This document shows positions 317-58,433 of a stretch of DNA of 64,000 nucleotides, in pieces. The stretch's first letter is position 1, and each line of letters opens with the position of its first letter. A program made the translations under genes and the position numbers. The notes beneath the pieces were generated by a model. That model was not told the origin of the DNA, made no database searches, and was given only the letters and a program-made list of their open reading frames with translations. The DNA comes from Bacillota bacterium (GTDB lineage Bacteria; Bacillota; Limnochordia; DTU087). The stretch lies in NCBI GenBank assembly GCA_012735435.1, contig JAAYHH010000011.1:14141-78140 (forward strand), read 5' to 3'.

Positions 317-1453
317 TCACTCCGGACCAATGGCGGCAAAGGGGTTCTTATCCAGGGAGGCTATGAGCTTCTCCTTATCTACATGGGTATAGATAGTCGT
401 TGTTGAAATGTGCTCATGGCCAAGAAGCCGCATCAACGTCCGCAAATCCTCGCCATTGAGATAAAGGGCAGTGGCAAAGGTATGGCGCAGCTTGTGAGGT
501 GTTAGCATCAATTTCTTACTCTCCGGCAGGTCGGTGAGCCGCACGTAATCCTTTAGCTTCTGCTGAATAGCTCTAGGTGTAATCCTGGTGTACTTATTCC
601 CGAGAAAAAGCGCCATCCGGTGCCGGCCTTTAGCTTTGTGGCCGGGACGCACCTTCTTGTATTCTGCCACTGCTTCCCGCACTGCGGGAGGCACTGGGAC
701 AGGACGGTTTCTACCGCCTTTCCCGCCGGTAACCCTGTAAAACTCAGTATCCGGTCCTATGTCATCGACATTCATCTGCACGACTTCTCCAATCCGCAGG
801 CCCATACTCAGCATAATCAGAAAAATGGCATAGTCCCGCTGGCACCCGTGCTGCCGGACGGTATTTAGAAAGGTAAGGGCCTCCTGAGCAGTTAAGTGCA
901 TGGGGGCTTCATTGCGGTGAATGGTCTTGGTCTGCAGATCTCGGATTAAAGAGGGGTCTGACAAAAGCTGATGGTCAAAGAGGTAGCTGAAAAACCGCCT
1001 CACGGCCACAATCTTGCGGTTGAGAGTGGTTTGGGTATACCCCAAGGTTTCTTTGAGGAATAGGAAATATCCGACCAGATCATCGGCTGTGACAGCCTCA
1101 AGATCCACGGTAAAACTGTCCAGCAGCCGACTGGCCTCAGGTCCCAGTCTGTTATCGTTGGCTGCAAGGGCAGTTTCCAGCCTGTGATATGCTGTCTTGT
1201 CCTGGGGCGGAGTTACACAGTCGCATCGGCCCAGAACAAGATGCAGTTTAAGAAGGCGCAGGTCCGATCGGTAAGCTTTGGCCGTGTTGAGGCTCCGGTT
1301 GATGCCCAACGCGGCGATAAATCGTTCAACTTGAAGGTCAAAGTCTAACACTGAGAATACCTCCGGTATATCCTTATGTAGTGTTGATTCGCTGCAGCCT
1401 AGGGCGCTTCCTTGGTTTTGACTGATCTTGCTGGAGGGACCCGCAAGAGACAA
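317..1453 (-). CDS. site-specific tyrosine recombinase, XerC/XerD family
   Basis: C-terminal catalytic motif HKLRHTFATALYLNGEDLRTLMRLLGHEHISTTTIYTHV (R..H..R..Y signature of tyrosine recombinases). The N-terminal SAM-like core-binding helices (FIAALGINRSLNTAKAYRSDL ... LVGYFLFLKETLGYTQTTLNRKIVAVRRFFSYL) are arranged as in XerD. About 40 aa of N-terminal extension is probably not translated. Confidence 0.8.
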   Translation of the reverse strand: MSLAGPSSKISQNQGSALGCSESTLHKDIPEVFSVLDFDLQVERFIAALGINRSLNTAKAYRSDLRLLKLHLVLGRCDCVTPPQDKTAYHRLETALAANDNRLGPEASRLLDSFTVDLEAVTADDLVGYFLFLKETLGYTQTTLNRKIVAVRRFFSYLFDHQLLSDPSLIRDLQTKTIHRNEAPMHLTAQEALTFLNTVRQHGCQRDYAIFLIMLSMGLRIGEVVQMNVDDIGPDTEFYRVTGGKGGRNRPVPVPPAVREAVAEYKKVRPGHKAKGRHRMALFLGNKYTRITPRAIQQKLKDYVRLTDLPESKKLMLTPHKLRHTFATALYLNGEDLRTLMRLLGHEHISTTTIYTHVDKEKLIASLDKNPFAAIGPE

Positions 1454-2561: not shown

Positions 2562-3200
2562 TTGGGAGGGGGCCAGCTCATGCGAGAGCTCACGGAGCGA
2601 CAGAGGGAAGTGCTGGAATTTATCAAGGAACGGGTTCGGGAAAAGGGATATCCCCCATCTGTTCGGGAAATAGGCGAGGCTGTGGGGCTGCGGAGCAGTT
2701 CTACGGTGCATGGACATCTTCGGCGCTTGGAAAGTAAAGGATATATTCGACGGGATCCCACTAAACCCCGGGCAATAGAGATTATCCATGATGATGAGCC
2801 CGCAGAGAGTCCCATGATAAAGGACCTAGTGTCTGTTCCACTTGTAGGAAGTGTTACAGCCGGGCAGCCCATCCTGGCCGTGGAGAACATAGAAGATTAC
2901 GTCCCTCTTCCCAGGGACTTTGCGTCAGATGAGGCTACCTTTATGCTGCGGATCAAGGGAGACAGCATGATCGATGCAGGAATCCTCGATGGCGACTATG
3001 TCGTGGTGCGGCAGCAGCCGGATGCCACCAACGGAGACATCGTAGTGGCACTCTTACAAGATGAAGCCACAGTGAAGCGCTTCTATCGAGAAGCCGATCA
3101 CGTACGGCTGCAGCCTGAGAATCCCCTCTATGATCCCATCATCACTACCGATGTGCAGATCTTGGGGAAAGTCATCGGAGTCCTGCGGAGGCTCCACTGA
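2562..3200 (+). CDS. lexA: LexA repressor
   Basis: N-terminal wHTH ([37 protein letters not shown]) and a C-terminal S24 peptidase domain with the Ala-Gly cleavage site (VTAGQP) and Ser/Lys dyad region ([12 protein letters not shown] ... [13 protein letters not shown]). The likely start is 2580 (MRELT). Confidence 0.95.
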
Positions 3201-7980: not shown

Positions 7981-8071
7981 TCCTTTGGCTCAAGAAAAAG
8001 AATGCTATGTTATCAATATCTACCAAATTGTACAATTCAACACAAGTACGGCAAATCCTTCAATCCAGCCG

Positions 8072-25588: not shown

Positions 25589-25617
25589 TTGACAATTGTG
25601 GCCAGTCATGGTATATT
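25589..25617 (+). promoter_or_regulatory. strong sigma-A-type promoter
   Basis: TTGACA at 25589-25594, a 17-nt spacer, then TGgTATATT extended -10 ending at 25617. It drives the small plus-strand gene below. Confidence 0.6.
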
Positions 25618-25716
25618 AAAGATGAAAATAACGTGTATACAGGATACATGATGTGTAAGCGTTTGTAGGCGTTCGGATAGATGTCGGCGGGTAGATACTT
25701 TGAAAGGAGTGATCCC

Positions 25717-25887
25717 TTGATAATCTCTGTCGGCAACCGGGAGATTACTATCAAGGTCCGCGAACAGTCAAGACCGGAAATCGCGGAGAGAGTGTACCGT
25801 CAGCTCCTTAGGGAGAGAGAAGTTCAGAAGGATCGGGATGCTGCCTACGCCCGTCTGTTGTTTGGTCAGGGGATTCACTTAAACTAG
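25717..25887 (+). CDS. small charged hypothetical protein, about 57 aa
   Basis: RBS AAAGGAG lies 7 nt upstream of a TTG start. The only ATG in frame (25681) has no RBS. The ORF ends TAG at 25887, is followed by a perfect 12-bp-stem terminator, and is a lone plus-strand unit among minus-strand genes. Confidence 0.45.
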   Translation: MIISVGNREITIKVREQSRPEIAERVYRQLLREREVQKDRDAAYARLLFGQGIHLN

Positions 25888-25917
25888 ACCACTGCAAGCG
25901 TAACAGTATGAAAAAGC

Positions 25918-25975
25918 AAACTGCGATGCTATACCACTCAAGGTACAAGGCATCGCAGTTTGTTTATTCTTTATG
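25918..25975 (+). terminator. rho-independent terminator
   Basis: AAACTGCGATGC ... GCATCGCAGTTT gives a perfect 12-bp stem with a 20-nt loop, followed by GTTTATTCTTTAT. Confidence 0.7.
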
Positions 25976-26017: not shown

Positions 26018-27574
26018 TTAGTTTACAAACCCGATAATCAACGCCAGTACCGCTGCAATGGTTGCGATATTGGCGGCACTCTTAAGACTCTGATTCTGCT
26101 TCTCAGCATGGGTTCGGTAGCTGTCAAACTCATCCCGCAGCTCCTGCAGCTGCCGCTCCAGCCGCTGTTCCCGCATTAGGGCTGCATTGATCTGGGCAGA
26201 TGATTGTGTAATCACCCGCTCATCAACGGCTGCCAGGGCAGACTCTGTGGCGCTTACCCGCTCCTGCAGTATAGAAACAGCTGCCTGCAGCTCTTCAACG
26301 TAATCCTGCAGATCTGCAAGATCCTTGCTGTCAGCTGCTGCACCCTGCTGCAAGATATTGGTCCTCTTGTCTAAGGCAGCGATCTTCTGAGAAATATTTA
26401 CAAGGTCTGTCTGGACTGCCTCCAAACTCCTAACCAGGTCTTGACGCAGACCGCTGACATCCTTCATCAATTGCCCATCCGCGGCAGCCATAGCTTCTCC
26501 CTGTTTCAAGACTTGATCCTGGAGCGCCTGCACATCTTCGGCAAGTGCAGCCGTCTCCTCAGAGCGGGCAAGTCTTTCCTCCGCTACAGCCTGCTGCAGC
26601 TGTCCAATTTCAGCGGTTAGCTGATCATCCCTCTGGGCGGATTCTTCTTGCCAGCTGCTCAGCTCTTGCTCCATTTGGACAAGCTGCTGGACAACCTCAG
26701 ACAGGCCCTTTTCCACCCGACTGATCTCTTCTGCCAGTTCAGCATCGGCCTCTTGCATGGCGTTCTGCAGTAAGCTTAAAGCCGCATCCCGTTCCGCAAA
26801 GCTGCTCTGGACCTTTACACCCAAAGCCTCCTCCAGCGCTACTAGTGAGTCAGTGTGGAGTGCCAGCATCCGGGTGTGCTCATCTAACCTTGCTTCATTG
26901 GCTTCAACAGCGGCCTCGGTATCGGCCAGGGCTGCTGCCTGTTTGACAAGCTCATCCTCAAGGGCTTGAAGCTTACGGCCCTGGTCAGCAGCCTGCTGCC
27001 TAAGGTCTGCATCAGCAGCTTCGAGGCGCCGGGTGGTATCGGCAACCTGCTGCTGGAGGGCGGCAATTTCCGCCAATATGGCTGCTGCCTGCTCCTGTAT
27101 AGAGGTGCGGATAGCTGCATCTTCCTGCTCCATTGTGTCGATGACCTTAGTCACAGTCTCATCCATTACCTGAACACGACGCTGGGTTTCGGTAACGGAA
27201 GCTGACAGCTCTTCCCTTTGATTATACCACCGTACAAGTTCATCCCTAAACTCGGTAGAAAGTGTCCGGAGCAGTTCCAAATCCTCCTGAGTTACACCCA
27301 GCTGCCCTTTTTCGATGTCCACTAGGAGCCGGCCAACTACTGAAGCCAGCGTATACCTATCGACAGGTCTCTGACCTTGAAAAGTTCCATCGGTATAGAG
27401 AGCAAGATAACCTTCCTGGACTAACTTTTGAACACCCTCATAGGCCCAATGGTCTGCAGGCACATCGCTGATCTGCTGTGCAGTCTGCTGGGCAAAAACA
27501 AGATTCCCCTGACCTACCAACAGCAGCAAAAACAGTAGTACAACTCCTATTCTTCGAATTGTCCTCGACTCCAT
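26018..27574 (-). CDS. Ompα-like envelope tether: signal peptide, single SLH domain, roughly 400-aa coiled coil, C-terminal TM helix
   Basis: Signal peptide (MESRTIRRIGVVLLFLLLLVGQGNLVFA). SLH motif (DVPADHWAYEGVQKLVQEGYL...GTFQGQRPVDRYTLASVVGRLL). A long heptad-rich, Q/E/A/L-dominated segment. C-terminal hydrophobic helix (IATIAAVLALIIGFVN). Confidence 0.7.
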   Translation of the reverse strand: MESRTIRRIGVVLLFLLLLVGQGNLVFAQQTAQQISDVPADHWAYEGVQKLVQEGYLALYTDGTFQGQRPVDRYTLASVVGRLLVDIEKGQLGVTQEDLELLRTLSTEFRDELVRWYNQREELSASVTETQRRVQVMDETVTKVIDTMEQEDAAIRTSIQEQAAAILAEIAALQQQVADTTRRLEAADADLRQQAADQGRKLQALEDELVKQAAALADTEAAVEANEARLDEHTRMLALHTDSLVALEEALGVKVQSSFAERDAALSLLQNAMQEADAELAEEISRVEKGLSEVVQQLVQMEQELSSWQEESAQRDDQLTAEIGQLQQAVAEERLARSEETAALAEDVQALQDQVLKQGEAMAAADGQLMKDVSGLRQDLVRSLEAVQTDLVNISQKIAALDKRTNILQQGAAADSKDLADLQDYVEELQAAVSILQERVSATESALAAVDERVITQSSAQINAALMREQRLERQLQELRDEFDSYRTHAEKQNQSLKSAANIATIAAVLALIIGFVN

Positions 27575-27630
27575 TTCCTCCCGCCCCCTGTCAATCTTCT
27601 TTGCTCCTCAGTGTTTTCCCAGCACCTTTG

Positions 27631-29664
27631 TTACCTGGCAACAGTAACCGGCAGTTCCATGGGTCCCAATTCGATCACCTGTCCACTGGTGGTGGTCAGC
27701 TTGGTACCCAGCAGCTGGATGACACCGGTGCCTTCAGCGCCTGCCACAAACCGGATTGAACACAGGTTACCTGTCAATCGACTGGGTCCCAGCTGTGAAA
27801 GCCCCCGGAGTTTCACCTGGATAATGCCCTGTGACGGCTGCAGCTCCACCTCCATCGGAGCGGCATCTCCCACGGCAGCCGATAGAGGTGCCAGGACCTC
27901 GCCCCGCTCTACTCCAAGGCGGCCGCCGGCTACCCGCATCAGGTCCACTGGAAACTTAAGCAAGAACTCTGCCTCTTCGATGTTCTTCAGATTATAGCCC
28001 CTTATGGCCGTCTTCATAGGCCCTCCCACAACAGCGGGGCCTGTCCCCTCTGCGATGAGTCTGATCATTTGGGGAAGCTGCGGTATGCTGATAAATTCAT
28101 TTACAATCAGCGGTTCGGTGGCACCGGACTCCACCCTCACCGAATAGGGCAGGCTGTCACTGGCCACATCGGTTGGGGTTAAGAACCACTGAACCACAAT
28201 GGACTCCTGTGGACCGAGATCTCCGCAGAGTTTAGTCCGCCCCTCACCAGGGGCCAGCTGAAGCCCCAAGGGTGCCTGCCATTGGGCATGAACCCACGGT
28301 GCATTCATTTCACCGACATTGGTGATGGTGGCCCTAACGGCAAAGGGTACCGGCTGCAGACTTCCATCTTCAACTAAGAGACGGGGCGGTGCGGAGATTT
28401 TCACCTGCAGTTCGGCAGGTTTGGCGATCCTAACTTGCCGCCGCACCCGGTTGGGCTCACTGTTGGCAGCTTCAACCTTTACTTCGTAGCTGATTTCACC
28501 TCTAATATGGTCAGCCACTTCCACTTGCCAGGCCAGCTGTACTGACTCTCCCACTTCCAAATTACCCAGGCTGCCGCCGGCCTCCTGTCCAGGAACCAGG
28601 GACAAGCCGCTGGGCAGTTCAATGGCTATCCTAACATCCCTAGCCTCACCTTCGCCGCTGTTCTCCAGATAGGCGACAATCGGGAACCTTGTCGGTCCGT
28701 CGGGGGCGTGGGAGACTACAGCAGGTGATGTGACTCCCAAGGAAAGCTTTCCGGGAGCAATGGTTATACCGCCAAGCCCGTAGTAAGTTACCCAAGTAAC
28801 GCTCTCGCCGGGACCGAGGGTGACCGGATCCCAAAACATAGCAATCGCCGAATCCAGCTCAAATTCACCCTTCCGGAGGAAAATGCGGCCAGGGTCAAAA
28901 TCAAAATCCCAGATGCTCTCTGCCAAAGCTCCCCAGTTGCTGAAGTACACCCGATCAGGCGGGGTTACCCCTGAACCCCGCAGGGTTCCCTGGGACATAA
29001 CCTGGGGATCGGCCAGGGAGTCGAATGCCTGCCAAAACTCCGGTATAGCTCCTCCGGTAAACAATGTATCGGTAGTAACAGCCTGCTGCTCTACCCTAAA
29101 GGGGGCACCGTCATTGGCGCCCAACATAGTATCCAGCATAAGCCGCATGGCTACGCTGTGGGAAACAGAATCCTCATTGGTCAAAGTATAGGCAATCCGG
29201 GCTGTATCTTGCAGACCAGTGGTGCTGCTTCGGGTAAAGCTGAGGATCTGCTCCGCTTTCACCGGCCCTAGTTTATATACAGTGCTGATGGCATTTCCCT
29301 GGATAACTTCGGGTCCTGAGATCAGCTCCCCGAATGGTCCTTGTCTTCCAGCGGAGGTCTGTGTCGGACCGCCAAATACATAGTTGCGACCGTCTATTTG
29401 GATCGTGGTGTAAGAAGTCCAAGGATCGGCCATGCCGTAAACTAAGGGTTTGTTTTCATCACCGATCCGGTCAGGATCTCCGCCGGTGGTGTTGATGGAG
29501 AACCGGCCGGTGTTTTCTTCGCCTCCGTTGACAATGATGGAAATGTATTCATTGGCGACAATGATATTGCTGCCGACGTTACCTTCGACCATAGCCCGGG
29601 CCTTCTCTACTTCACAGCTAATCAACATGACCGCAGCCAGGGCAATTGCCAACCAGCGCCGCAT
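27631..29664 (-). CDS. large secreted lipoprotein, beta-rich multi-domain (Ig/CARDB-like repeats)
   Basis: Signal peptide with lipobox (MRRWLAIALAAVMLISC). 677 aa rich in G/T/S/V. Repeated segments resemble Ig-like surface domains (…ITNVGEMNAP…, …VKVEAANSEP…). No catalytic motif recognised. Confidence 0.55.
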   Translation of the reverse strand: MRRWLAIALAAVMLISCEVEKARAMVEGNVGSNIIVANEYISIIVNGGEENTGRFSINTTGGDPDRIGDENKPLVYGMADPWTSYTTIQIDGRNYVFGGPTQTSAGRQGPFGELISGPEVIQGNAISTVYKLGPVKAEQILSFTRSSTTGLQDTARIAYTLTNEDSVSHSVAMRLMLDTMLGANDGAPFRVEQQAVTTDTLFTGGAIPEFWQAFDSLADPQVMSQGTLRGSGVTPPDRVYFSNWGALAESIWDFDFDPGRIFLRKGEFELDSAIAMFWDPVTLGPGESVTWVTYYGLGGITIAPGKLSLGVTSPAVVSHAPDGPTRFPIVAYLENSGEGEARDVRIAIELPSGLSLVPGQEAGGSLGNLEVGESVQLAWQVEVADHIRGEISYEVKVEAANSEPNRVRRQVRIAKPAELQVKISAPPRLLVEDGSLQPVPFAVRATITNVGEMNAPWVHAQWQAPLGLQLAPGEGRTKLCGDLGPQESIVVQWFLTPTDVASDSLPYSVRVESGATEPLIVNEFISIPQLPQMIRLIAEGTGPAVVGGPMKTAIRGYNLKNIEEAEFLLKFPVDLMRVAGGRLGVERGEVLAPLSAAVGDAAPMEVELQPSQGIIQVKLRGLSQLGPSRLTGNLCSIRFVAGAEGTGVIQLLGTKLTTTSGQVIELGPMELPVTVAR

Positions 29665-29720
29665 TAATCACCAGCCCCCTAACTGTAGTATCGTTTCATT
29701 GGCGATCTATCGAGGAGCCA

Positions 29721-30647
29721 CTACTCGTTCCGGACATACCTGACACCATCGTAAAGAATCGATACCCTAAACTCCGGCGGACCGCTGAAGGAGACAGTTA
29801 CCGTCAGAATATAATCCTCCAGCAGCGGCTCCATTCGCCATCCGTTCTGGATAGTTAAGCTTGCTACCTGGTCTAGGCTTGCTGCCCCGGAAGACTGGAT
29901 GATGTCAATCCGGGTTGCTCTAGTAGACCCCTTGGGGACATAGGCATCCAGCTTCACAGTGCCTGCCAAGCCCTCGTTAATTGCATTCTTGGGGTACTGA
30001 ATCCGGCCACCGCCTGCTACCAGAGTGCTTGCCGCCGGCAGTGGAGGCAGTGGCGGTGGCGAAGGTGGTGTCGGTTCTGCCTCTTCATCGCTTTCTGTCT
30101 CGGATGAAGAACCGCCTGGTTCGCCGGCAGGGGCAGAATCGCCTCCAGCCATGACAGCATCTTGACCTTGCTCGCTGGTCAGGATTTGCTCCCCATTGCT
30201 GTCAGGCTGCGATAGAGCCTCTTCACTGGCTGCCGGATCCGGCTCAGGTTCAGGCTCAGGCACTACCCTGGTGTCAGGAGTCTTAACTTCCTCTTGGGGA
30301 GCCGGGGTCGTCTCCTGCGGCTTTGGTGCTGGCTCCGGTTCAGTCTTGGTTACCTCGGCCTTGGCAGTTTCAACCGGTTCCGGTTCTTCCTTCGGTGGCG
30401 TGGGTTCCTGACGACGGGGAGTTTGCTGCTGCGGCTGCTGCCTGACCGCTTGGGTTCTAGGCGCTGGCTGCTGGACCTCTACGGGTACAACAGAAATAAT
30501 ACCGCCGCCAGGACCTGCAAAAAGGCCGGGTCCAACCGCAAATTCCCAGCGGGGAAAGACAAAGAACAGCATTGCGTGAAGGATAAGCGAAATCAAGACA
30601 AAGGCTCCAAAGGAGCGGTCTGACTCATCTCCTGTATACATTGCCAC
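29721..30647 (-). CDS. TonB-family protein: N-terminal TM, Pro/Glu-rich spacer, TonB C-terminal domain
   Basis: TM helix AFVLISLILHAMLFFVF. PEPEPEPDP and TPPSPPPLPPLP spacer. C-terminal IQYPKNAINEGLAGTVKLDAYVPKGSTRATRIDIIQSSGAASLDQVA matches the TonB_C pattern (YP..A...G.EG.V.L.......G......I..SSG...LD). Confidence 0.7.
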   Translation of the reverse strand: MAMYTGDESDRSFGAFVLISLILHAMLFFVFPRWEFAVGPGLFAGPGGGIISVVPVEVQQPAPRTQAVRQQPQQQTPRRQEPTPPKEEPEPVETAKAEVTKTEPEPAPKPQETTPAPQEEVKTPDTRVVPEPEPEPDPAASEEALSQPDSNGEQILTSEQGQDAVMAGGDSAPAGEPGGSSSETESDEEAEPTPPSPPPLPPLPAASTLVAGGGRIQYPKNAINEGLAGTVKLDAYVPKGSTRATRIDIIQSSGAASLDQVASLTIQNGWRMEPLLEDYILTVTVSFSGPPEFRVSILYDGVRYVRNE

Positions 30648-30691
30648 ACCACCTCCCCTCGGATTTGGCTGACGCCAAAGGGTGTACCATG

Positions 30692-31105
30692 CTACCTGCC
30701 CCGGGGTTCAACTGCAAGGCCAAAGCGATATCCTCCCAGCTGCCGAACAACATCCATTACTTGAACTATATAATCATAGCGAGCCTCCCGGTCAGCTTTA
30801 ATGACGACAAAAAGGTCCGGCCTTTTCTCCAATGCTTTGCCGACCTCTGACCTTAGAGTATTACTACTGACCTGACGCTCACCCAAGAACATCCGTCCAT
30901 CTTTAGCTACAGAAATGGTGATCTGGCTGCTGGCTTGTCTGTCCCAACTTGCCGCCTTGGGCAGTTCAAGATTCAATCCTGCTGGATGGGTCTTAAAGGT
31001 CGTAGCCAGCATGAAGAACACCAAAACAGAAAAAATAATATCAACCAGCGGCACTATTTGAATCGTTGGCTTTTTGTTGCGGACAGAGCGGCGGGCTATC
31101 ATCAC
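30692..31105 (-). CDS. exbD: ExbD/TolR biopolymer transport protein
   Basis: N-terminal KKPTIQIVPLVDIIFSVLVFFM motif. Single TM plus periplasmic domain. 4-bp overlap with exbB. Confidence 0.85.
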   Translation of the reverse strand: MMIARRSVRNKKPTIQIVPLVDIIFSVLVFFMLATTFKTHPAGLNLELPKAASWDRQASSQITISVAKDGRMFLGERQVSSNTLRSEVGKALEKRPDLFVVIKADREARYDYIVQVMDVVRQLGGYRFGLAVEPRGR

Positions 31106-31716
31106 ACATCACCCCTCGCCTCAAAGATGGCCAACAGCTCCGAAGAGCGTTTGTTGATATCAACCACTAGGCGGTCGATTAATCCCGAAAGGTAAGAATA
31201 AATCAGAGTACCCGGAATGGCGATTACTAAGCCGGTTGCAGTTGTAATTAGGGCTTCTGCAATTCCTGTGCTTAAGGCAAGGGTATCATCTAAGCCGCCA
31301 ACCGCTGAAATCACTTGAAAACTATTGATAATACCTGTTACTGTACCTAAGAGACCAAGCAACGGTGCAGCGGTGATGATTGCATCGAGAAGTCCCAGCC
31401 GGCGTTCCATACGGAAGACCTCTTCATAGGCCACTTCTTCCAAGCGCTCTCGGATAAACTGCTTGTCCTTATCATAATGGGCTATCCCCGCCGCCAGTAC
31501 AGCCGCAACCGGGCCTCTGGTTTTCTTTGCTATCTGGATAGCTTCCAGGATTTTGCCTTGCTGAAGAGCCAGTTTAATGTCATCCATCAAATCCTCTGTA
31601 TCTACTCGACAGCGAAGCAAGTAGACCAGCCTTTCGAGAGAGACAGCTACCATCAATACAGAGCAAAGCAGCAACGGGATCATTACCGGGCCGCCCCGAA
31701 TGATCAAATCCAGCAT
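31102..31716 (-). CDS. exbB: ExbB/TolQ/MotA family proton-channel protein
   Basis: Three-TM MotA/TolQ/ExbB topology with LLGLLGTVTGIINSF and conserved C-terminal helices. Start taken at MLDLIIRGG, which has a GGAGG RBS 8 nt upstream. The 27-nt longer ORF start has no RBS. Confidence 0.85.
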   Translation of the reverse strand: MLDLIIRGGPVMIPLLLCSVLMVAVSLERLVYLLRCRVDTEDLMDDIKLALQQGKILEAIQIAKKTRGPVAAVLAAGIAHYDKDKQFIRERLEEVAYEEVFRMERRLGLLDAIITAAPLLGLLGTVTGIINSFQVISAVGGLDDTLALSTGIAEALITTATGLVIAIPGTLIYSYLSGLIDRLVVDINKRSSELLAIFEARGDV

Positions 31717-31997
31717 TCTATATACCTCCACTCCGTCCCACATTCATTGGGTAAGACTATTCGACAATCAGGTACCATATCCTTCCTGGCTATTCCCTTG
31801 AGAAACTCCCACGAGAATTTCCTCTAAAGGCCTACGTGCTTCCCTGATTTTCCCCTCTTGGCATTTTCGACAAGGCAAGAGACAACTCCTGCCGTCAAAA
31901 GTCCATCTGAAACAAAGAAAGACGTGGATATGAATAGGGAAATGTCCCCAGGATATGCTACCATCAAGATGCTTTTCGACGGGAGATGGGATCTATA

Positions 31998-34597: not shown

Positions 34598-34719
34598 AAA
34601 TTAATGCAACCAAAGCAACTGCAATAAAAGTTAGGTGTCCGTTAAATGTATTTTCACGCACATCTGATAAATTCCTGCTAGACAGCTAAACCGTTGCTGC
34701 AAGTCGCAGCAAGCAGTCC

Positions 34720-54944: not shown

Positions 54945-57900
54945 TTAGAAAAGTGACAGCTGGGAGGTTTTGGGAAGCCCGGCTAGTGCTCCGTGGGCAC
55001 CTAGGGTTTCAATGACCGTTCGACTGACGCCGCACCTCATCCTGATATCCTCCCATGATGCAAAGGGTCCCTCTTCCCTGCCCTGGGCCAGCATCAGGGC
55101 TGCCCCTTCCCCTACTCCCGGTACAATTGCCAGGGGCGGCCTCAGCTCTTCCCCTTCGATCACAAAGCGGTTGGGATGGGACTTGTATATGTCAACGGTA
55201 TGAAAATCTATTCCCCGGAGCATGGCCTCCATAACGACTTCAGCCACTGTCAGCAGACTTTTCTCTTTAGCAGTGGCGCTGCCGCCTTTGGCGGAAATGG
55301 AATGGATGATCTCCTTTACACCTGCAAGGCCGCCCGTGATCAGCTGAACCTCGAAGGTATTAACCCGGGTAGAAAAATAGGCAGCGTAATAGGCCAGGGG
55401 ATAATGTACCTTAAAGTACGCTATCCGGAAGGCCATGGTCACATATGCCACTGCATGGGCCTTGGGGAATAGGTAGCTGATCTTTTTGCAGGAGTCGATG
55501 TACCACTGGGGGACTCCTACTTTTTCCATGGCCTCAACGTCTTCAGGTCTTAATCCCCTTCCCTTCCGGACCCTTTCCATGATTACGAAGGCGGTCTCTG
55601 GTTCCATCCCCTTTTGAATAAGGTAATTCATGATGTCATCCCGGGTGGCGATGGCCTGGCTAAGGTCAGCAGTTCCGTTCTTGATCAACTCTTGAGCATT
55701 ATTGGTCCAGACATTGGTTCCATGGGAAAACCCGCTGATACGCACCAGTTCTCCAAAGGACTTGGGCCGGGTTTCCTCAAGCATCTGCCGGACAAAACGG
55801 GTGCCGAACTCAGGAACGCCCAAAGTCCCAACGGTAGTGCCAAGATCATCGGGGCTTATCCCTAAGGCCTCCACACTGGAGAAGATGCTCATGGTAGCAG
55901 GGTCATCAAGCGGTATATCCAGGACCGGCACTCCAGTCATATCCTCCAGCATCCGGAGCATTGTGGGATCGTCATGGCCGAGAATATCCAATTTCACCAG
56001 GTTGTCGCTGATGGCATTGTAATCAAAATGGGTAGTGATGGTGCCGCTGGCAGCATCATTGGCCGGGTACTGTACCGGTGAAAACTCGTTGATATCCCGG
56101 CCTTCGGGAACCACAATCATGCCGCCGGGGTGCTGGCCGGTGGTACGCCGCACTCCAGTACAGCCCTTGACCAGCCGGTTGATTTCAGCGGTTCTGGCAG
56201 TTTGCCCTTTGCTTTCTAAGTATTTGCACACAAAGCCGTAGCTGGTCTTCTCCGCCAGTGTGCCGATGGTGCCCGCCCGGAACACGTATTCTTTGCCGAA
56301 AAGCTCCTCTGTGTACTTATGAACACAGGCCTGATATTCCCCGGAAAAATTGAGATCTATATCAGGCACCTTTTCCCCGTGAAAGCCCATGAAAACCTCA
56401 AAGGGGATATCAAAGCCCAATTTTCGGTATTGTGTACCGCATTGACAGTGCTTGTCTGGCAGGTCGATACCAGTTTGTACTGAACCATCGGTAATAAATT
56501 CCGCATGGTGGCACTGGGGACAAACATAATGGGGCGGCAGGGGATTTACCTCGGTCACCCCGCAGAGGGTAGCCACCAGTGATGAGCCCACAGAACCCCG
56601 GGAACCTACCAGATAACCATCGCTGAGGGATTTTTTTACCAGCTTGTGGGCAATCAGATAGAGAACAGCAAATCCGTTGCCGACAATGGCATTTAGTTCC
56701 TTCTCAATCCGCTCCTTGACCAGCGGGGGCAGCGGATCACCATACAGCTTCCGGGCGTTGGCATAGGTCATCTCGGTGATCTGCTCTTCAGCTCCTTCGA
56801 TCTTGGGGGCATGCAGGCCGTCGGGGATGGGCCGCAGCTCTTCGATCATTTCCGCGATGCGATTGGGCCCGTGGATCACCACTTCCCTGGCAGTCTCTTC
56901 ATCGAGATACGCGAACTCCGCCAGCATTTCCTCAGTTGTCCGGAAAAACAAAGGTGCCTGCCTTTCAGCATCTTCATATCCTTGACCGGCCATCAGGATG
57001 CGGCGGTAGATTTCATCCCATGGATGCAGGTAGTGGACATCGCAGGTAGCCACCACCGGTTTTCCCAGACGCTCTCCTAGAGCAACAATACCCCGGTTGA
57101 TCTCCTCTAGGTCTTCTTGTGACTGGACTTTATCACCGATCATGAAGGCATTGTTGCCCAACGGCTGGATTTCCAGGTAATCATAGAAATCGGCTATTTT
57201 CATCAGCCGTTCTTCATCGCTGCCTTGCAGGAAAGCTTGGTACACTTCACCAGCTTCACATGCGGAACCGATGATGAGACCCTCTCGATACTTCTCAATC
57301 AATCGGCGGGGCAGACGGGGCCGGCGGTAGAAATACTTTAGATGGGATAGGGATACCAGTCTATACAGGTTGTGCAGGCCCTGCTGATTTCTAGCCAAAA
57401 GTACTATGTGATAGGAGGGAGCCCTGGGGTCATCCCCATCGATGAGATACCCTTCCATCCCGTAAATTATCTTGATGCCGGCCTTCTTGCCGGCGAAGTA
57501 AGCCTCGGGAAAAGCTTGGACGACGCCGTGATCCGTGATGGCAACTGCCTTGTGGCCCCAGCTTGCTGCCAATTGGATAATCTCTCCGACATCGACAGTT
57601 CCGTCCATAGCAGACATCTTGGTATGAAGATGCAGCTCAACCCGCTTTTCAGGGGCCTCATCCCGCCGAACAAATTCAGCGAGGGGCTCCTGGATCTCTA
57701 TGTCGTTGGGCAGCATAGTGAGCTCCTGGGTATAGCGATCCCACTGGACGGAGCCCCTCACCCGCAGCCAGACGCCCGGGCTGAGTTCCGGTGCCAGCCG
57801 GGGAGCATCTTCATCTTCGAAAAGCTTAAGGGTAATAGAATCGCGATAGTCGGTGAGGTCGATCATTACCAAGCGCCGACCGCTCCGGAGTTCCTTTTCC

Positions 57901-58433
57901 TCGACCTTGATGATTTCACCGGCAGTGACGTAGGAACGCTCTTCGTCGGTGATCTCAGCTATAGAACGGGGTTCCTCCCGGATAGACCGTCCCTTCAATA
58001 CGCCCCTTGAGCCTTTCTTGGCAGAGACTTCAGTTTGCTTGGGCGGGGGATCTTCGATGGCTTGGCGACTAGCCCGTTCCATTACATATGACATATAGGT
58101 AGCTTCGTCGGCAAGGAGGAGATCACTGATCGGAGGTTCAAGAGACTTGTGGTTTTCGCCAACAGCTACGTCAAAGGAAACTGACCGCACCCCTGGCAGA
58201 AATTTCACCAGGGCTTGACTTAAGGTGTCCAATTCTCGGCGACACAGTTCCCCTCCAGCTGCTAAACAGATTTTCCACTCCTGGCGTTGGCAGTGAACCA
58301 AGATTCTTTCTACAACAGCTCGGGCGGCTGTTCCTTCACAGCTTACTGGAAGTTGAGCCGCCCGCAGGAAATCTGATAGGGATTGCCCTTTGGTTCGGGG
58401 AGTTACTACATATACAGTTGCATTACCAGCCAC
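54945..58433 (-). CDS. polC: DNA polymerase III alpha subunit, PolC type, apparently lacking the inserted 3'-5' exonuclease domain
   Basis: PolC-specific N-terminal/OB region (RSGRRLVMIDLTDYRDSITLKLF). PHP motif (VELHLHTKMSAMDG ... VAITDHGVVQAFPEAY ... IIYGMEGYLIDGDDPRAPSYHIVLLARNQQGLHNLYRLVSLSH) with no intervening DEDDh exonuclease. PolC-type Zn module and polymerase core (LVGSRGSVGSSLVATLCGVTEVNPLPPHYVCPQCHHAEF). Conserved rimP/proS synteny. 1162 aa, versus roughly 1430 aa for B. subtilis PolC. Confidence 0.85.
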   Translation of the reverse strand: MAGNATVYVVTPRTKGQSLSDFLRAAQLPVSCEGTAARAVVERILVHCQRQEWKICLAAGGELCRRELDTLSQALVKFLPGVRSVSFDVAVGENHKSLEPPISDLLLADEATYMSYVMERASRQAIEDPPPKQTEVSAKKGSRGVLKGRSIREEPRSIAEITDEERSYVTAGEIIKVEEKELRSGRRLVMIDLTDYRDSITLKLFEDEDAPRLAPELSPGVWLRVRGSVQWDRYTQELTMLPNDIEIQEPLAEFVRRDEAPEKRVELHLHTKMSAMDGTVDVGEIIQLAASWGHKAVAITDHGVVQAFPEAYFAGKKAGIKIIYGMEGYLIDGDDPRAPSYHIVLLARNQQGLHNLYRLVSLSHLKYFYRRPRLPRRLIEKYREGLIIGSACEAGEVYQAFLQGSDEERLMKIADFYDYLEIQPLGNNAFMIGDKVQSQEDLEEINRGIVALGERLGKPVVATCDVHYLHPWDEIYRRILMAGQGYEDAERQAPLFFRTTEEMLAEFAYLDEETAREVVIHGPNRIAEMIEELRPIPDGLHAPKIEGAEEQITEMTYANARKLYGDPLPPLVKERIEKELNAIVGNGFAVLYLIAHKLVKKSLSDGYLVGSRGSVGSSLVATLCGVTEVNPLPPHYVCPQCHHAEFITDGSVQTGIDLPDKHCQCGTQYRKLGFDIPFEVFMGFHGEKVPDIDLNFSGEYQACVHKYTEELFGKEYVFRAGTIGTLAEKTSYGFVCKYLESKGQTARTAEINRLVKGCTGVRRTTGQHPGGMIVVPEGRDINEFSPVQYPANDAASGTITTHFDYNAISDNLVKLDILGHDDPTMLRMLEDMTGVPVLDIPLDDPATMSIFSSVEALGISPDDLGTTVGTLGVPEFGTRFVRQMLEETRPKSFGELVRISGFSHGTNVWTNNAQELIKNGTADLSQAIATRDDIMNYLIQKGMEPETAFVIMERVRKGRGLRPEDVEAMEKVGVPQWYIDSCKKISYLFPKAHAVAYVTMAFRIAYFKVHYPLAYYAAYFSTRVNTFEVQLITGGLAGVKEIIHSISAKGGSATAKEKSLLTVAEVVMEAMLRGIDFHTVDIYKSHPNRFVIEGEELRPPLAIVPGVGEGAALMLAQGREEGPFASWEDIRMRCGVSRTVIETLGAHGALAGLPKTSQLSLF

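What the first reader, a model, noticed from the sequence alone, without database searches (positions are those of the whole stretch)
26018..31743. ExbB-ExbD-TonB-like energizer co-operonic with a large lipoprotein and an Ompα-like SLH/coiled-coil tether
Five minus-strand genes are packed with 4-bp overlaps or gaps of 45-57 bp: exbB(MotA/TolQ), exbD, a TonB-family protein (TM, Pro-rich spacer, TonB_C), a 677-aa secreted lipoprotein (lipobox LISC) built of Ig/CARDB-like beta domains, and a 518-aa protein with the same architecture as Thermotoga Ompα (signal peptide, single SLH domain, roughly 400-residue coiled coil, C-terminal TM helix). No TonB-dependent beta-barrel receptor is encoded nearby. 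The surrounding genes (spoIIA operon, sigH, SASP, spoVK) place this in an endospore former. A Ton-type PMF motor plus a rod-like PG-to-membrane spacer is expected only in diderm envelopes. The cluster therefore either marks a diderm-type (Negativicutes/Halanaerobiales/Limnochordia-like) envelope, or is an uncharacterised PMF-energised surface system in which the lipoprotein is the cargo or partner.
Basis: partly seen in the sequence, partly recalled or inferred. Interest (0 to 1): 0.8.

Follow-up and report, generated by a model that had tools for sequence, protein, structure and literature searches.

The report
Orphan Ton-like motor with wall-tether operon
This is a five-gene operon, conserved across several double-membraned relatives of Gram-positive bacteria, that couples a proton-driven Ton/Tol-type motor not to a nutrient receptor but to a secreted sugar-binding-like protein and a cell-wall-binding coiled-coil anchor. 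Its function is unknown and it may do the job that Tol-Pal does in classical Gram-negatives.

Summary
Five co-directional minus-strand genes (31716 to 26018) encode ExbB, ExbD, a TonB-type transducer, a 677-aa secreted beta-rich protein (X), and an Omp-alpha-like protein with a signal peptide, an OmpM-type SLH domain, a ~400-aa coiled coil and a C-terminal anchor.

Corrections:
- X's lipobox occurs only in the closest relatives (>=83% identity).
- X is a galactose-mutarotase-like supersandwich, two Ig-like domains and a cohesin fold.
- exbB probably starts at 31716.

The window most likely comes from a Limnochordia MAG. The same five genes, in the same order, are present in all 59 related loci whose contig is long enough. 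They also occur in cultured Halanaerobiales (Halothermothrix orenii, Halanaerobium praevalens), in Margulisbacteria and in an Armatimonadetes-labelled MAG.

Published work found no TonB-dependent receptors in H. orenii, and no Ton system in diderm Firmicutes other than Negativicutes. Tol-Pal is confined to Gracilicutes.

A sigma-H-type promoter (AGGA-N17-GAAT) precedes the operon in 67 of 68 loci, and a strong terminator follows it.

Best reading (confidence ~0.45): a PMF-driven envelope-maintenance system that works like Tol-Pal on a wall-to-membrane tether. It is a new variant of the Ton/Tol kind. I found no description of it in the searchable literature.

The parts
31759..31783 (-). Sigma-H-type promoter, AGGATATGGTACCTGATTGTCGAAT (AGGA-N17-GAAT), about 43 nt upstream of the exbB start codon
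   Evidence: This is the only match in the window to the clade motif GGATATGGTA-N5-YTGTCGAATA, with 0 expected by chance. The looser sigma-H consensus AGGAWWW-N10-13-RNNGAAT has 3 matches, one of them before sigH. It is invariant in 12 close loci even where the upstream gene differs. AGGA-N16-18-GAA is present in 67 of 68 loci against a background of 0.05 per 150 nt. The motif definition comes from PMC12456013. The same motif lies before the window's sigH gene and its spoIIA operon.
31102..31716 (-). exbB/tolQ-type proton-channel subunit (204 aa; the open frame extends to 31743)
   Evidence: PF01618, E 2e-32. NCBIfam scores are tolQ 94.6 bits and exbB 80.6 bits, both below their equivalog cut-offs. 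The TM2/TM3 motifs PLLGLLGTVTG and GIAEALITTATG are conserved in 70 homologues. Start site.
30692..31105 (-). exbD/tolR-type subunit (137 aa), overlapping exbB by 4 bp
   Evidence: PF02472, E 3e-28. NCBIfam scores are tolR 73 bits and exbD 58 bits, both below cut-off. The transmembrane Asp22 is conserved in >=95% of 70 homologues.
29721..30647 (-). TonB/TolA-type force transducer (308 aa): N-terminal TM helix with SxxxH (S20, H24), Pro/Glu/Lys-rich linker at ~55-205, TonB_C domain at 216-294 with a YP motif
   Evidence: PF03544 scores 36.8 bits against a cut-off of 24.6. SxxxH is present in 68 of 68 complete homologues. S20, H24 and the YP motif are conserved. Similarity to solved TonB C-terminal domains is only weak, E 0.3.
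27631..29664 (-). Protein X (677 aa): signal peptide (with a lipobox LISC in this clade only), conserved N-terminal supersandwich domain (res ~31-305; nt 28750-29574), two Ig-like domains (res ~307-526), cohesin-fold domain (res ~533-677)
26018..27574 (-). Omp-alpha-like tether (518 aa): signal peptide (1-28), OmpM/SlpA-type SLH domain (35-73), ~400-aa coiled coil (96-495), C-terminal hydrophobic anchor (~497-516)
   Evidence: SLH PF00395. Sequence matches to D. radiodurans SlpA (7zgx, E 2e-10) and the V. parvula OmpM1 stalk (8bz2/8bym, E ~1e-9). Heptad-type periodicity. The C-terminal anchor is present in all 69 homologues. Charge bias around the anchor.
25911..25961 (-). Intrinsic-terminator-like hairpin followed by a U-run, 57 nt after the stop codon of the last gene; it probably works in both directions, because the neighbouring small ORF converges on it
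   Evidence: Sequence read. The RNA fold is -30.7 kcal/mol, z -7.5, with 0 of 200 shuffles as stable.

Best explanation
The five genes form one operon that encodes a complete Ton/Tol-type energiser. The parts are an ExbB pentamer with an ExbD dimer as the proton channel, and a TonB-like transducer that docks on it through its SxxxH helix and reaches across the periplasm on a proline-rich linker. The target is not a TonB-dependent receptor. It is the two envelope proteins that always follow in the operon.

Protein X is exported. It carries a glycan-binding-type supersandwich, two Ig-like spacers and a cohesin-type protein-binding module. The fifth protein very probably forms a parallel coiled coil (trimeric by analogy with OmpM). 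It binds peptidoglycan or its secondary polymer through an OmpM-type SLH head and holds a membrane through its C-terminal helix.

I propose that the motor uses the proton-motive force to pull on X, on the tether or on both. This would detach, reposition or load the wall-to-membrane tether while the envelope grows, divides or is remodelled at the onset of stationary phase and sporulation. That is work of the kind TolQRA-TolB-Pal does in Gracilicutes, which these lineages lack.

Shown here: the gene content, the domain architectures, the motor and transducer motifs, the conserved synteny across phyla, and the promoter and terminator signals.

Inferred: co-transcription, the physical contacts, which membrane holds the anchor, and the Tol-Pal-like role.
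For: 1. Functional unit. All five genes are colinear in 59 of 59 related loci whose contig covers the positions: 56 by phmmer, and three more with divergent TonB-like ORFs that carry SxxxH. Median gaps are -2 to 18 bp. The same module occurs in:
- H. orenii and H. praevalens;
- Marinamargulisbacteria and relatives;
- an unknown taxon;
- an Armatimonadetes-labelled MAG.

2. Working motor. ExbD Asp22, the ExbB TM motifs, and the TonB SxxxH and YP motifs are conserved.

3. No receptor. None is in the window and none appears in any fetched flank. Mavromatis 2009 found no TonB-dependent receptor in the complete H. orenii genome and suggested a different function. Williams-Jones 2025 detected Ton systems only in Negativicutes among diderm Firmicutes, and Tol-Pal only in Gracilicutes.

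4. Link to the cell wall. The SLH head and the start of the stalk are homologous to the OM-to-PG tethers OmpM and SlpA, and the Arg-Tyr of the TRYE ligand motif is kept. In Halanaerobiales a SleB-type cell-wall hydrolase gene (PF07486) directly follows gene 5.

5. Operon boundaries. A conserved promoter lies upstream and a strong terminator downstream. The promoter and terminator sites found inside the cluster number no more than shuffled sequence gives.
Against: - No experiment and no complex prediction links the proteins; every contact is inferred from synteny.
- By sequence the transducer's C-terminal domain is TonB-type (TonB_C, YP motif), which would equally suit a still-unrecognised outer-membrane channel.
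- X has neither a TolB-like beta-propeller nor any other resemblance to TolB, and the tether is unrelated to Pal.
- The coiled-coil proteins range from about 140-160 aa to 1447 aa in total length. This length does not co-vary with TonB length (rho 0.04-0.09), which is hard to fit to a simple periplasm-spanning geometry.
- The Armatimonadetes-labelled version of gene 5 lacks SLH.
- Where X sits (periplasm or surface) and which membrane holds the anchor are unknown.
- The absence of receptors in this particular genome was not tested. It rests on the window and on two papers about related organisms.
Confidence: 0.45

Rival explanations
1. It is a true Ton import system. The TonB-like protein would energise an outer-membrane channel encoded elsewhere, which is either too divergent to recognise or a porin such as OmpM. 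X would be a substrate-capturing (glycan-binding) accessory protein and the coiled-coil protein a scaffold.
For: - The C-terminal domain matches TonB_C above threshold and has the YP motif.
- X's N-terminal domain has a fold typical of carbohydrate-binding or carbohydrate-processing modules.
- Mavromatis 2009 left open that the receptors might be too divergent to detect.
Against: - No beta-barrel gene is linked to the module in about 90 loci from at least three phyla.
- This reading does not explain the invariant partnership with a wall-binding, membrane-anchored coiled coil, nor the SleB-type hydrolase in Halanaerobiales.
- Two independent surveys found no TonB-dependent receptors in these Firmicute classes.
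Confidence: 0.2
2. It is a sporulation or germination device of diderm spore-formers. It would be switched on by sigma-H to remodel or re-tether membranes and wall around the asymmetric septum or forespore.
For: - A sigma-H-type promoter is present in 67 of 68 loci and in H. orenii. The same motif precedes the window's sigH and spoIIA genes.
- In 33-39 Limnochordia loci the module sits directly after dacF-spoIIAA-spoIIAB-sigF, and in ~19 it sits before spoVAC/spoVAD-like genes.
- In Halanaerobiales it lies between spoVS-spmA-spmB and a SleB-type hydrolase.
Against: - The module exists in Margulisbacteria and in an Armatimonadetes-labelled MAG. To my knowledge these phyla do not form endospores; this was not tested here.
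- In Halanaerobium praevalens, spmAB and the sigma-H motif are replaced by a two-component system, yet the module is intact.
- Sigma-H also drives non-sporulation genes in Firmicutes (PMC12456013). The promoter may therefore be a lineage-specific regulatory overlay rather than the core function.
Confidence: 0.15
3. It is a surface-display or 'cellulosome-anchor'-type system. X would use its cohesin module to dock dockerin-bearing enzymes, the SLH protein would fix the assembly to the wall, and the motor would help export or assembly.
For: - Database names such as 'cellulosome anchor protein' and 'cohesin domain-containing protein'.
- X's N-terminal domain also heads RHS toxins and PKD-rich surface proteins.
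Against: - The names derive only from the cohesin-like domain, and no dockerin partner was seen in any locus.
- The cohesin region is the least conserved part of X.
- The SLH head is of the periplasmic OmpM/SlpA stalk type.
- Marine Margulisbacteria with ~2-Mb genomes carry the module next to lptFG and holB, which is not a polysaccharide-degradation context.
Confidence: 0.08
4. It is a force generator for surface motility or filament dynamics, analogous to the Agl-Glt gliding machinery: a TolQR-like motor, TonB-like proteins and periplasmic or outer-membrane partners.
For: - The general architecture: a motor, a TonB-like transducer and envelope proteins with no receptor.
- The very long coiled coils in some members, up to 1447 aa.
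Against: - No homologues of Glt or other motility components are in the loci.
- The newly cultured Limnochordia strain was immotile under all conditions tested (PMC11456536).
- The module consists of only five genes.
Confidence: 0.04

Closest known systems
Tol-Pal system (TolQ-TolR-TolA-TolB-Pal-CpoB) of Gracilicutes
   Same: - An operon that begins with a MotA/ExbB-family and an ExbD/TolR-family gene, followed by a TonB/TolA-type transducer with SxxxH.
- These are followed by a soluble exported beta-rich protein and then by a protein that binds both peptidoglycan and a membrane.
- No receptor is involved.
- NCBIfam scores are slightly higher for tolQ and tolR than for exbB and exbD.
   Different: - All tol equivalog scores are far below their cut-offs.
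- X has a supersandwich, Ig-like domains and a cohesin fold, not the TolB beta-propeller.
- The wall binder is an SLH, coiled-coil and TM-helix protein, not an OmpA-like lipoprotein.
- There is no CpoB or YbgC.
- The transducer's C-terminal domain matches TonB_C, not TolA.
- The taxa are Terrabacteria, where Tol-Pal has not been found.
Ton system (ExbB-ExbD-TonB plus TonB-dependent transporters)
   Same: ExbB, ExbD and a TonB-type protein carrying all the hallmark motifs and the TonB_C domain.
   Different: No TonB-dependent transporter is linked, and none was detected in H. orenii. Unlike most tonB genes, which often lie apart from their motor genes, this one is always locked into a five-gene module with two non-receptor proteins.
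Thermotoga Omp-alpha and the OmpM/SlpA superfamily of OM-to-peptidoglycan tethers
   Same: A signal peptide, a single N-terminal SLH domain and a long coiled coil, with sequence similarity to the SlpA and OmpM1 SLH-plus-stalk region. As in Omp-alpha there is no beta-barrel. Omp-alpha has a 45-50 nm coiled coil (PMC10160955).
   Different: - The Omp-alpha/Omp-beta split has been reported for Thermotogae, Bipolaricaulota and Fraserbacteria, with Omp-alpha next to a beta-barrel gene. Here the partner genes are a Ton-type motor and X.
- The coil length is extremely variable.
- Diderm Firmicutes are reported to have canonical OmpM as well, so this protein would be an additional tether and not the main one.
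vWA-type motor-driven force transducers (Williams-Jones et al. 2025)
   Same: A recently recognised example of TolQR/ExbBD-like motors coupled to non-canonical periplasmic partners of unknown function.
   Different: Those transducers replace the TonB/TolA C-terminal domain with a vWA fold and occur in Proteobacteria, PVC and Bacteroidetes. Here the transducer is TonB-like and the novelty lies in the two downstream partners.

Membership tests
Ton system | ExbB (MotA/TolQ/ExbB family) with conserved TM2/TM3 motifs | tested here: met
   PF01618, E 2e-32; the motifs are conserved in 70 homologues.
Ton system | ExbD with the essential transmembrane aspartate | tested here: met
   PF02472, E 3e-28; Asp22 is conserved in >=95% of homologues.
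Ton system | TonB: N-terminal TM helix with SxxxH, proline-rich linker, TonB_C domain | tested here: met
   PF03544 scores 36.8 bits against a cut-off of 24.6. SxxxH is present in 68 of 68 homologues. The YP motif is conserved.
Ton system | A TonB-dependent outer-membrane transporter (plug plus 22-strand barrel) as the target | tested here: not met
   None is in the window or in any related locus. None was detected in the complete H. orenii genome (PMC2626281). Ton systems were not detected in diderm Firmicutes other than Negativicutes (PMC12204202). The whole genome of this MAG could not be searched.
Tol-Pal system | TolQ and TolR equivalogs | tested here: inconclusive
   tolQ and tolR are the best NCBIfam hits, but at 94.6 against a cut-off of 221 bits and 73.2 against 127 bits.
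Tol-Pal system | TolB (N-terminal alpha/beta domain plus six-bladed beta-propeller) | tested here: not met
   X is a supersandwich, two Ig-like domains and a cohesin fold, and it has no TolB or PD40 Pfam hit.
Tol-Pal system | Pal (OmpA-like peptidoglycan-binding outer-membrane lipoprotein) | tested here: not met
   Gene 5 is an SLH, coiled-coil and TM-helix protein with no OmpA domain.
Tol-Pal system | Role in outer-membrane constriction and stability | not testable with these tools
   This needs genetics and imaging in a carrier organism.
Omp-alpha-type tether | Signal peptide, single SLH domain, long coiled coil and no beta-barrel, with a C-terminal hydrophobic segment | tested here: met
Omp-alpha-type tether | Adjacent Omp-beta-type beta-barrel gene | tested here: not met
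   The neighbours are exbB, exbD, tonB and X upstream. Downstream lie a terminator and pst genes in the window, or a hydrolase in Halanaerobiales.
Omp-alpha-type tether | Anchored in the outer membrane with the SLH head on peptidoglycan | not testable with these tools
   The only indirect hint is the charge bias: 2.9 K/R before the anchor and 0.3 after it, which is atypical for an inner-membrane stop-transfer helix.
OmpM/SlpA superfamily | SLH plus coiled-coil stalk plus C-terminal beta-barrel | tested here: not met
   The SLH and stalk are homologous, but the C-terminus is a single ~19-aa hydrophobic helix and not a barrel.
Cohesin module | Cohesin jelly-roll fold | tested here: met
Cohesin module | A dockerin-bearing partner | not tested
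   No dockerin gene was seen in the loci, and the genomes were not searched.
Bacterial lipoprotein (for X) | Conserved lipobox cysteine after the signal peptide | tested here: inconclusive
   L-I-S-C is present in the window and in P0001-P0004. It is absent from all homologues below ~80% identity, which have signal-peptidase-I sites.

The most novel reading that the evidence does not exclude
The module is the ancient Terrabacterial counterpart of Tol-Pal. It would be a proton-driven machine, already present before Bacillota, Margulisbacteria and Armatimonadota diverged. It would actively load, release or move a helix-anchored, SLH-based wall-to-membrane tether through the adaptor protein X, and so couple the energised inner membrane to outer-membrane attachment and constriction in bacteria that lack Pal, Lpp and TolB. 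In spore-forming Firmicutes it would have been placed under sigma-H control.
Probability: 0.3. Interest if true: 0.85.

Novelty: new variant of a known kind. Interest (0 to 1): 0.72.

Why it matters
Two open questions become directly testable.

First, diderm Terrabacteria lack Tol-Pal, Lpp and Pal. How they keep the outer membrane attached and make it constrict with the septum is unknown beyond the passive tether OmpM.

Second, an 'orphan' ExbB-ExbD-TonB without any receptor has been on record for Halothermothrix orenii since 2009 with no explanation.

The work here shows that this orphan motor is always locked to two specific envelope proteins, one of them a wall-binding OmpM-type stalk on a helical anchor. 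It also shows that the module is shared by at least three phyla. That gives a defined five-protein system to delete, localise and reconstitute.

If it proves to be a force-driven tethering system, energised control of outer-membrane attachment would be much older and more general than the Gracilicute Tol-Pal system. It would also bear on models of how Firmicutes lost the outer membrane.

Separately, X's 275-residue N-terminal domain has no Pfam model although it has more than 2600 representative sequences (at 50% identity clustering). It also heads RHS toxins and large surface proteins, so it deserves a family definition.

Tried and rejected
1. Length co-variation between the TonB-like protein and the coiled-coil protein, as evidence that both span the same gap. 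Result: none (Spearman 0.04-0.09, n=60-61). The impression came only from the short Margulisbacteria versions.

2. Anti-phage defence (Zor-like MotAB systems). There were no PADLOC hits apart from coiled-coil noise.

3. Sporulation as the core function. Rejected because the module occurs in phyla not known to sporulate, and in H. praevalens without the sigma-H motif.

4. X as a conserved lipoprotein. Rejected at family level.

5. Sequence comparison of the TonB-like protein with solved structures. Only marginal hits, E 0.3, so a TonB-versus-TolA assignment by sequence to PDB entries is not possible.

6. Rfam and tRNA scans of the window found nothing.

7. The generic sigma-70 promoter and terminator scan gave counts no higher than shuffled sequence. 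It missed both the sigma-H-type promoter and the long-loop terminator.

8. Foldseek against AFDB50 was not available.

9. Taib et al. 2020 could not be read, so I could not check whether its outer-membrane marker set lists these genes.

10. I did not attempt complex prediction with fused chains.

11. Whether Negativicutes carry the module could not be settled. None appeared among the listed hits, but the lists are truncated.


Full report
**What is in the window**

Five minus-strand ORFs lie at the stated coordinates:
- 31743/31716-31102
- 31105-30692
- 30647-29721
- 29664-27631
- 27574-26018

exbB and exbD overlap by 4 bp. The other gaps are 44, 56 and 56 bp.

NCBIfam ranks tolQ above exbB and tolR above exbD, but all scores are far below the equivalog cut-offs. 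The motor therefore belongs to the Ton/Tol clade without being assignable to either system.

The exbB frame opens at 31743. However, the ATG at 31716 has GGAGG 8 nt upstream and is the start shared by most relatives, giving 204 aa.

**The last protein is Omp-alpha-like**

- It has a signal peptide ending VFA|Q.
- Its SLH domain and the first part of the following helix match the SLH-plus-stalk region of Deinococcus SlpA (7zgx, E 2e-10) and Veillonella OmpM1 (8bz2/8bym, E ~1e-9).
- Residues 96-495 contain no proline and 2% glycine, and 53% of residues are A, E, L or Q. The dominant hydrophobic period is 3.55 residues, with power 3.59 against at most 1.28 in 500 shuffles.
- The protein ends in a ~19-residue hydrophobic segment with about one residue after it.

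**The 677-aa protein (X)**

- two Ig-like sandwiches, one of which is the Pfam NPCBM_assoc hit;

The N-terminal domain is by far the most conserved part. 64 columns within residues 38-307 are invariant across 32 homologues at 42-83% identity.

The lipobox L-I-S-C is present only in the window and its closest relatives (>=83% identity). All other homologues have ordinary signal-peptidase-I sites, and the window protein also has ARA|M. 'Lipoprotein' is therefore not a property of the family.

**Operon signals**

The cluster is bracketed by opposite-strand genes: an SASP gene upstream and a 68-aa ORF downstream.

57 nt after the last stop codon lies a hairpin followed by a U-run. It folds at -30.7 kcal/mol, z -7.5.

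Upstream of exbB is AGGATATGGTACCTGATTGTCGAAT (31783-31759).
- It is invariant in 12 close loci, even where the upstream gene differs.
- In relaxed form (AGGA-N16-18-GAA) it is present in 67 of 68 related loci, mostly 64-75 nt before the start codon. The background rate is 0.05 per 150 nt.
- AGGA/GAAT with a 17-18 nt spacer is the SigH motif of Bacillus, Clostridioides and Sporomusa (PMC12456013).
- The window supplies its own controls. The sigH gene (NF006148, 260 bits against a cut-off of 208) and the spoIIA operon both carry the motif.
- H. orenii has AGGA-N17-GAAT before its exbB. H. praevalens does not.

Co-transcription itself is inferred, not shown.

**Whose genome**

The window matches ENA metagenome contigs exactly. 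It lies in a housekeeping and sporulation region: nusA-infB...pnp, spoIIM, dacF-spoIIAA-spoIIAB-sigF, then the cluster, then pstCAB-phoU-miaB-mutSL, spoVK and sigH.

In a neighbour-joining tree of ExbB+ExbD+X, the window's clade nests among Limnochordia-labelled MAGs, with Halanaerobiales outside. Limnochordia and Halanaerobiales are documented diderm Firmicutes (PMC11456536; Witwinowski preprint).

**Conservation**

354 GTDB species genomes encode a close relative of X.

Of the 80 loci fetched:
- 56 show all five genes colinear;
- 21 are cut by a contig end;
- the remaining 3 have a divergent TonB-like ORF with SxxxH in the expected place.

So 59 of 59 informative loci have the module.

X is present in many cultured Halanaerobiales. 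The complete H. orenii genome has spoVS-spmA-spmB-PHP-exbB-exbD-tonB-X-SLH-(SleB-type hydrolase). H. praevalens has the same core after a two-component system.

A phmmer search with X's N-terminal domain, followed by contig look-ups, found the same five genes in:
- Candidatus Marinamargulisbacteria and relatives, in the context LOG-exbB-exbD-tonB-X-SLH-holB-rpsU-lptFG;
- an unidentified taxon;
- an Armatimonadetes-labelled MAG.

There the fifth proteins are short (141-193 aa) but keep the signal peptide, the coil and the extreme C-terminal anchor. The Armatimonadetes-labelled one lacks SLH.

The motor and transducer motifs are conserved throughout: ExbD Asp22, the ExbB TM motifs, and TonB SxxxH and YP.

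**What it is not**

No TonB-dependent receptor is in the window or in any locus. Mavromatis et al. 2009 noted ExbB, ExbD and TonB together in H. orenii, found no receptors, and suggested a different function. Williams-Jones et al. 2025 detected Ton systems only in Negativicutes among diderm Firmicutes, and Tol-Pal only in Gracilicutes.

Antunes 2016 does not mention these genes in the Firmicute outer-membrane locus. No paper in the searchable library combines Terrabacteria, SLH and ExbB/TonB in this sense. There are no PADLOC hits.

**How it most likely works**

The conserved logic is a motor, a transducer, an exported adaptor-like protein, and a wall-and-membrane binder. It occurs in lineages without receptors and without Tol-Pal, and in Halanaerobiales a cell-wall hydrolase gene follows it. 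This points to an envelope-maintenance machine that works like Tol-Pal.

In this model the PMF-energised TonB-like protein acts on X, on the tether or on both, to load, release or reposition a wall-to-membrane connection. I put this at about 0.45.

It fails membership of Tol-Pal (no TolB, Pal or CpoB) and of the Ton system (no receptor). It is best filed as a new variant of the Ton/Tol kind.

Rivals:
- A true import system with an unrecognised channel, 0.2.
- A sporulation-specific device, 0.15. This is weakened by the module's presence in Margulisbacteria and Armatimonadetes and in H. praevalens without the promoter.
- Cohesin-based surface display, 0.08.
- A motility-type force generator, 0.04.

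**Unexplained**

- The coiled-coil proteins range from about 140-160 aa to 1447 aa in total length, with no correlation to TonB length.
- The tail anchor has its positive charges on the N-terminal (exported) side: 2.9 K/R before it against 0.3 after it. This is atypical for an inner-membrane stop-transfer helix. It fits an Omp-alpha-like outer-membrane anchor but does not prove one.
- X's N-terminal domain also occurs at the head of RHS-repeat toxins and PKD-rich surface proteins, including records labelled Pseudomonadota and Thorarchaeota. It is therefore a general, still unnamed, extracytoplasmic module.

**Verdict**

The finding is a conserved, uncharacterised Ton/Tol-like module of diderm Terrabacteria. 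Interest 0.72.

Noticed in passing
window 31759-31783 (-), 8035-8059 (-), about 34654-34680 (-): Three sigma-H-type promoters (AGGA-N17-GAA[T/A]) lie in one window: before the exbB operon, before the sigH gene itself (suggesting autoregulation) and before spoIIAA. The one before exbB is conserved in 67 of 68 related loci and in Halothermothrix orenii.
   Followed up: yes
window 28750-29574 (-); proteins P0355, P0372, P0374, P0364, P0376: The 275-aa N-terminal domain of X has no Pfam or NCBIfam model. Yet it has 2614 representative sequences at E<=1e-3. At 45-49% identity it also heads RHS-repeat toxins (with DUF6531) and PKD/Ig-rich surface proteins, including records labelled Pseudomonadota and Thorarchaeota.
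   Followed up: partly
L084 12786-13379; L085 10788-11372; L082 10586-11209: In Halanaerobiales a SleB/CwlJ-type cell-wall hydrolase gene (PF07486) directly follows the SLH gene, with a gap of 3-67 bp. It may be a sixth operon member there. It is absent from the window.
   Followed up: partly
L084 6821-7633; L082 4378-5199; 30 Limnochordia loci (for example L014 4754-5650): A PHP-domain protein of ~270-300 aa sits just upstream of exbB in Orenia, in H. orenii and in 30 Limnochordia loci, but not in the window, where a GNAT acetyltransferase and an SASP gene take that place. In H. praevalens a response regulator and histidine kinase pair occupies the position.
   Followed up: partly
L041 (JBLNCC010000096.1) and L092 (JBHPEX010000003.1): Two public MAG records carrying the module look mislabelled. 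L041 is called Betaproteobacteria, but its cluster proteins group with unlabelled Bacillota MAGs. L092 is called Thermoproteota archaeon, but it has a bacterial Margulisbacteria-like context (LOG, holB, rpsU, Lnt).
   Followed up: partly
window 54945-58433 (-): The PolC-like DNA polymerase III alpha subunit upstream of rimP-nusA is only 1162 aa. It has OB-fold, PHP, pol3-alpha, finger and HHH domains but no detectable exonuclease (RNase_T) domain in the Pfam scan.
   Followed up: no
window 25589-25887 (+): A 68-aa ORF with no family match converges on the operon's terminator. It is preceded by a near-consensus sigma-70 promoter with an extended -10 (TTGACA-17-TATATT with TG, 11 of 12 matches), and the hairpin at 25911-25961 could terminate both transcripts.
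   Followed up: no
window 317-1453 (-) and 2562-3200 (+): A phage-type tyrosine integrase and a LexA repressor lie at the low end of the window, which may mark the edge of an integrated element. I did not examine this further.
   Followed up: no
L028 10186-13305; L029 9942-14285; L046 10017-12683: In three Limnochordia loci the SLH coiled-coil protein is 888-1447 aa, two to three times the usual length, while the rest of the module is ordinary.
   Followed up: no
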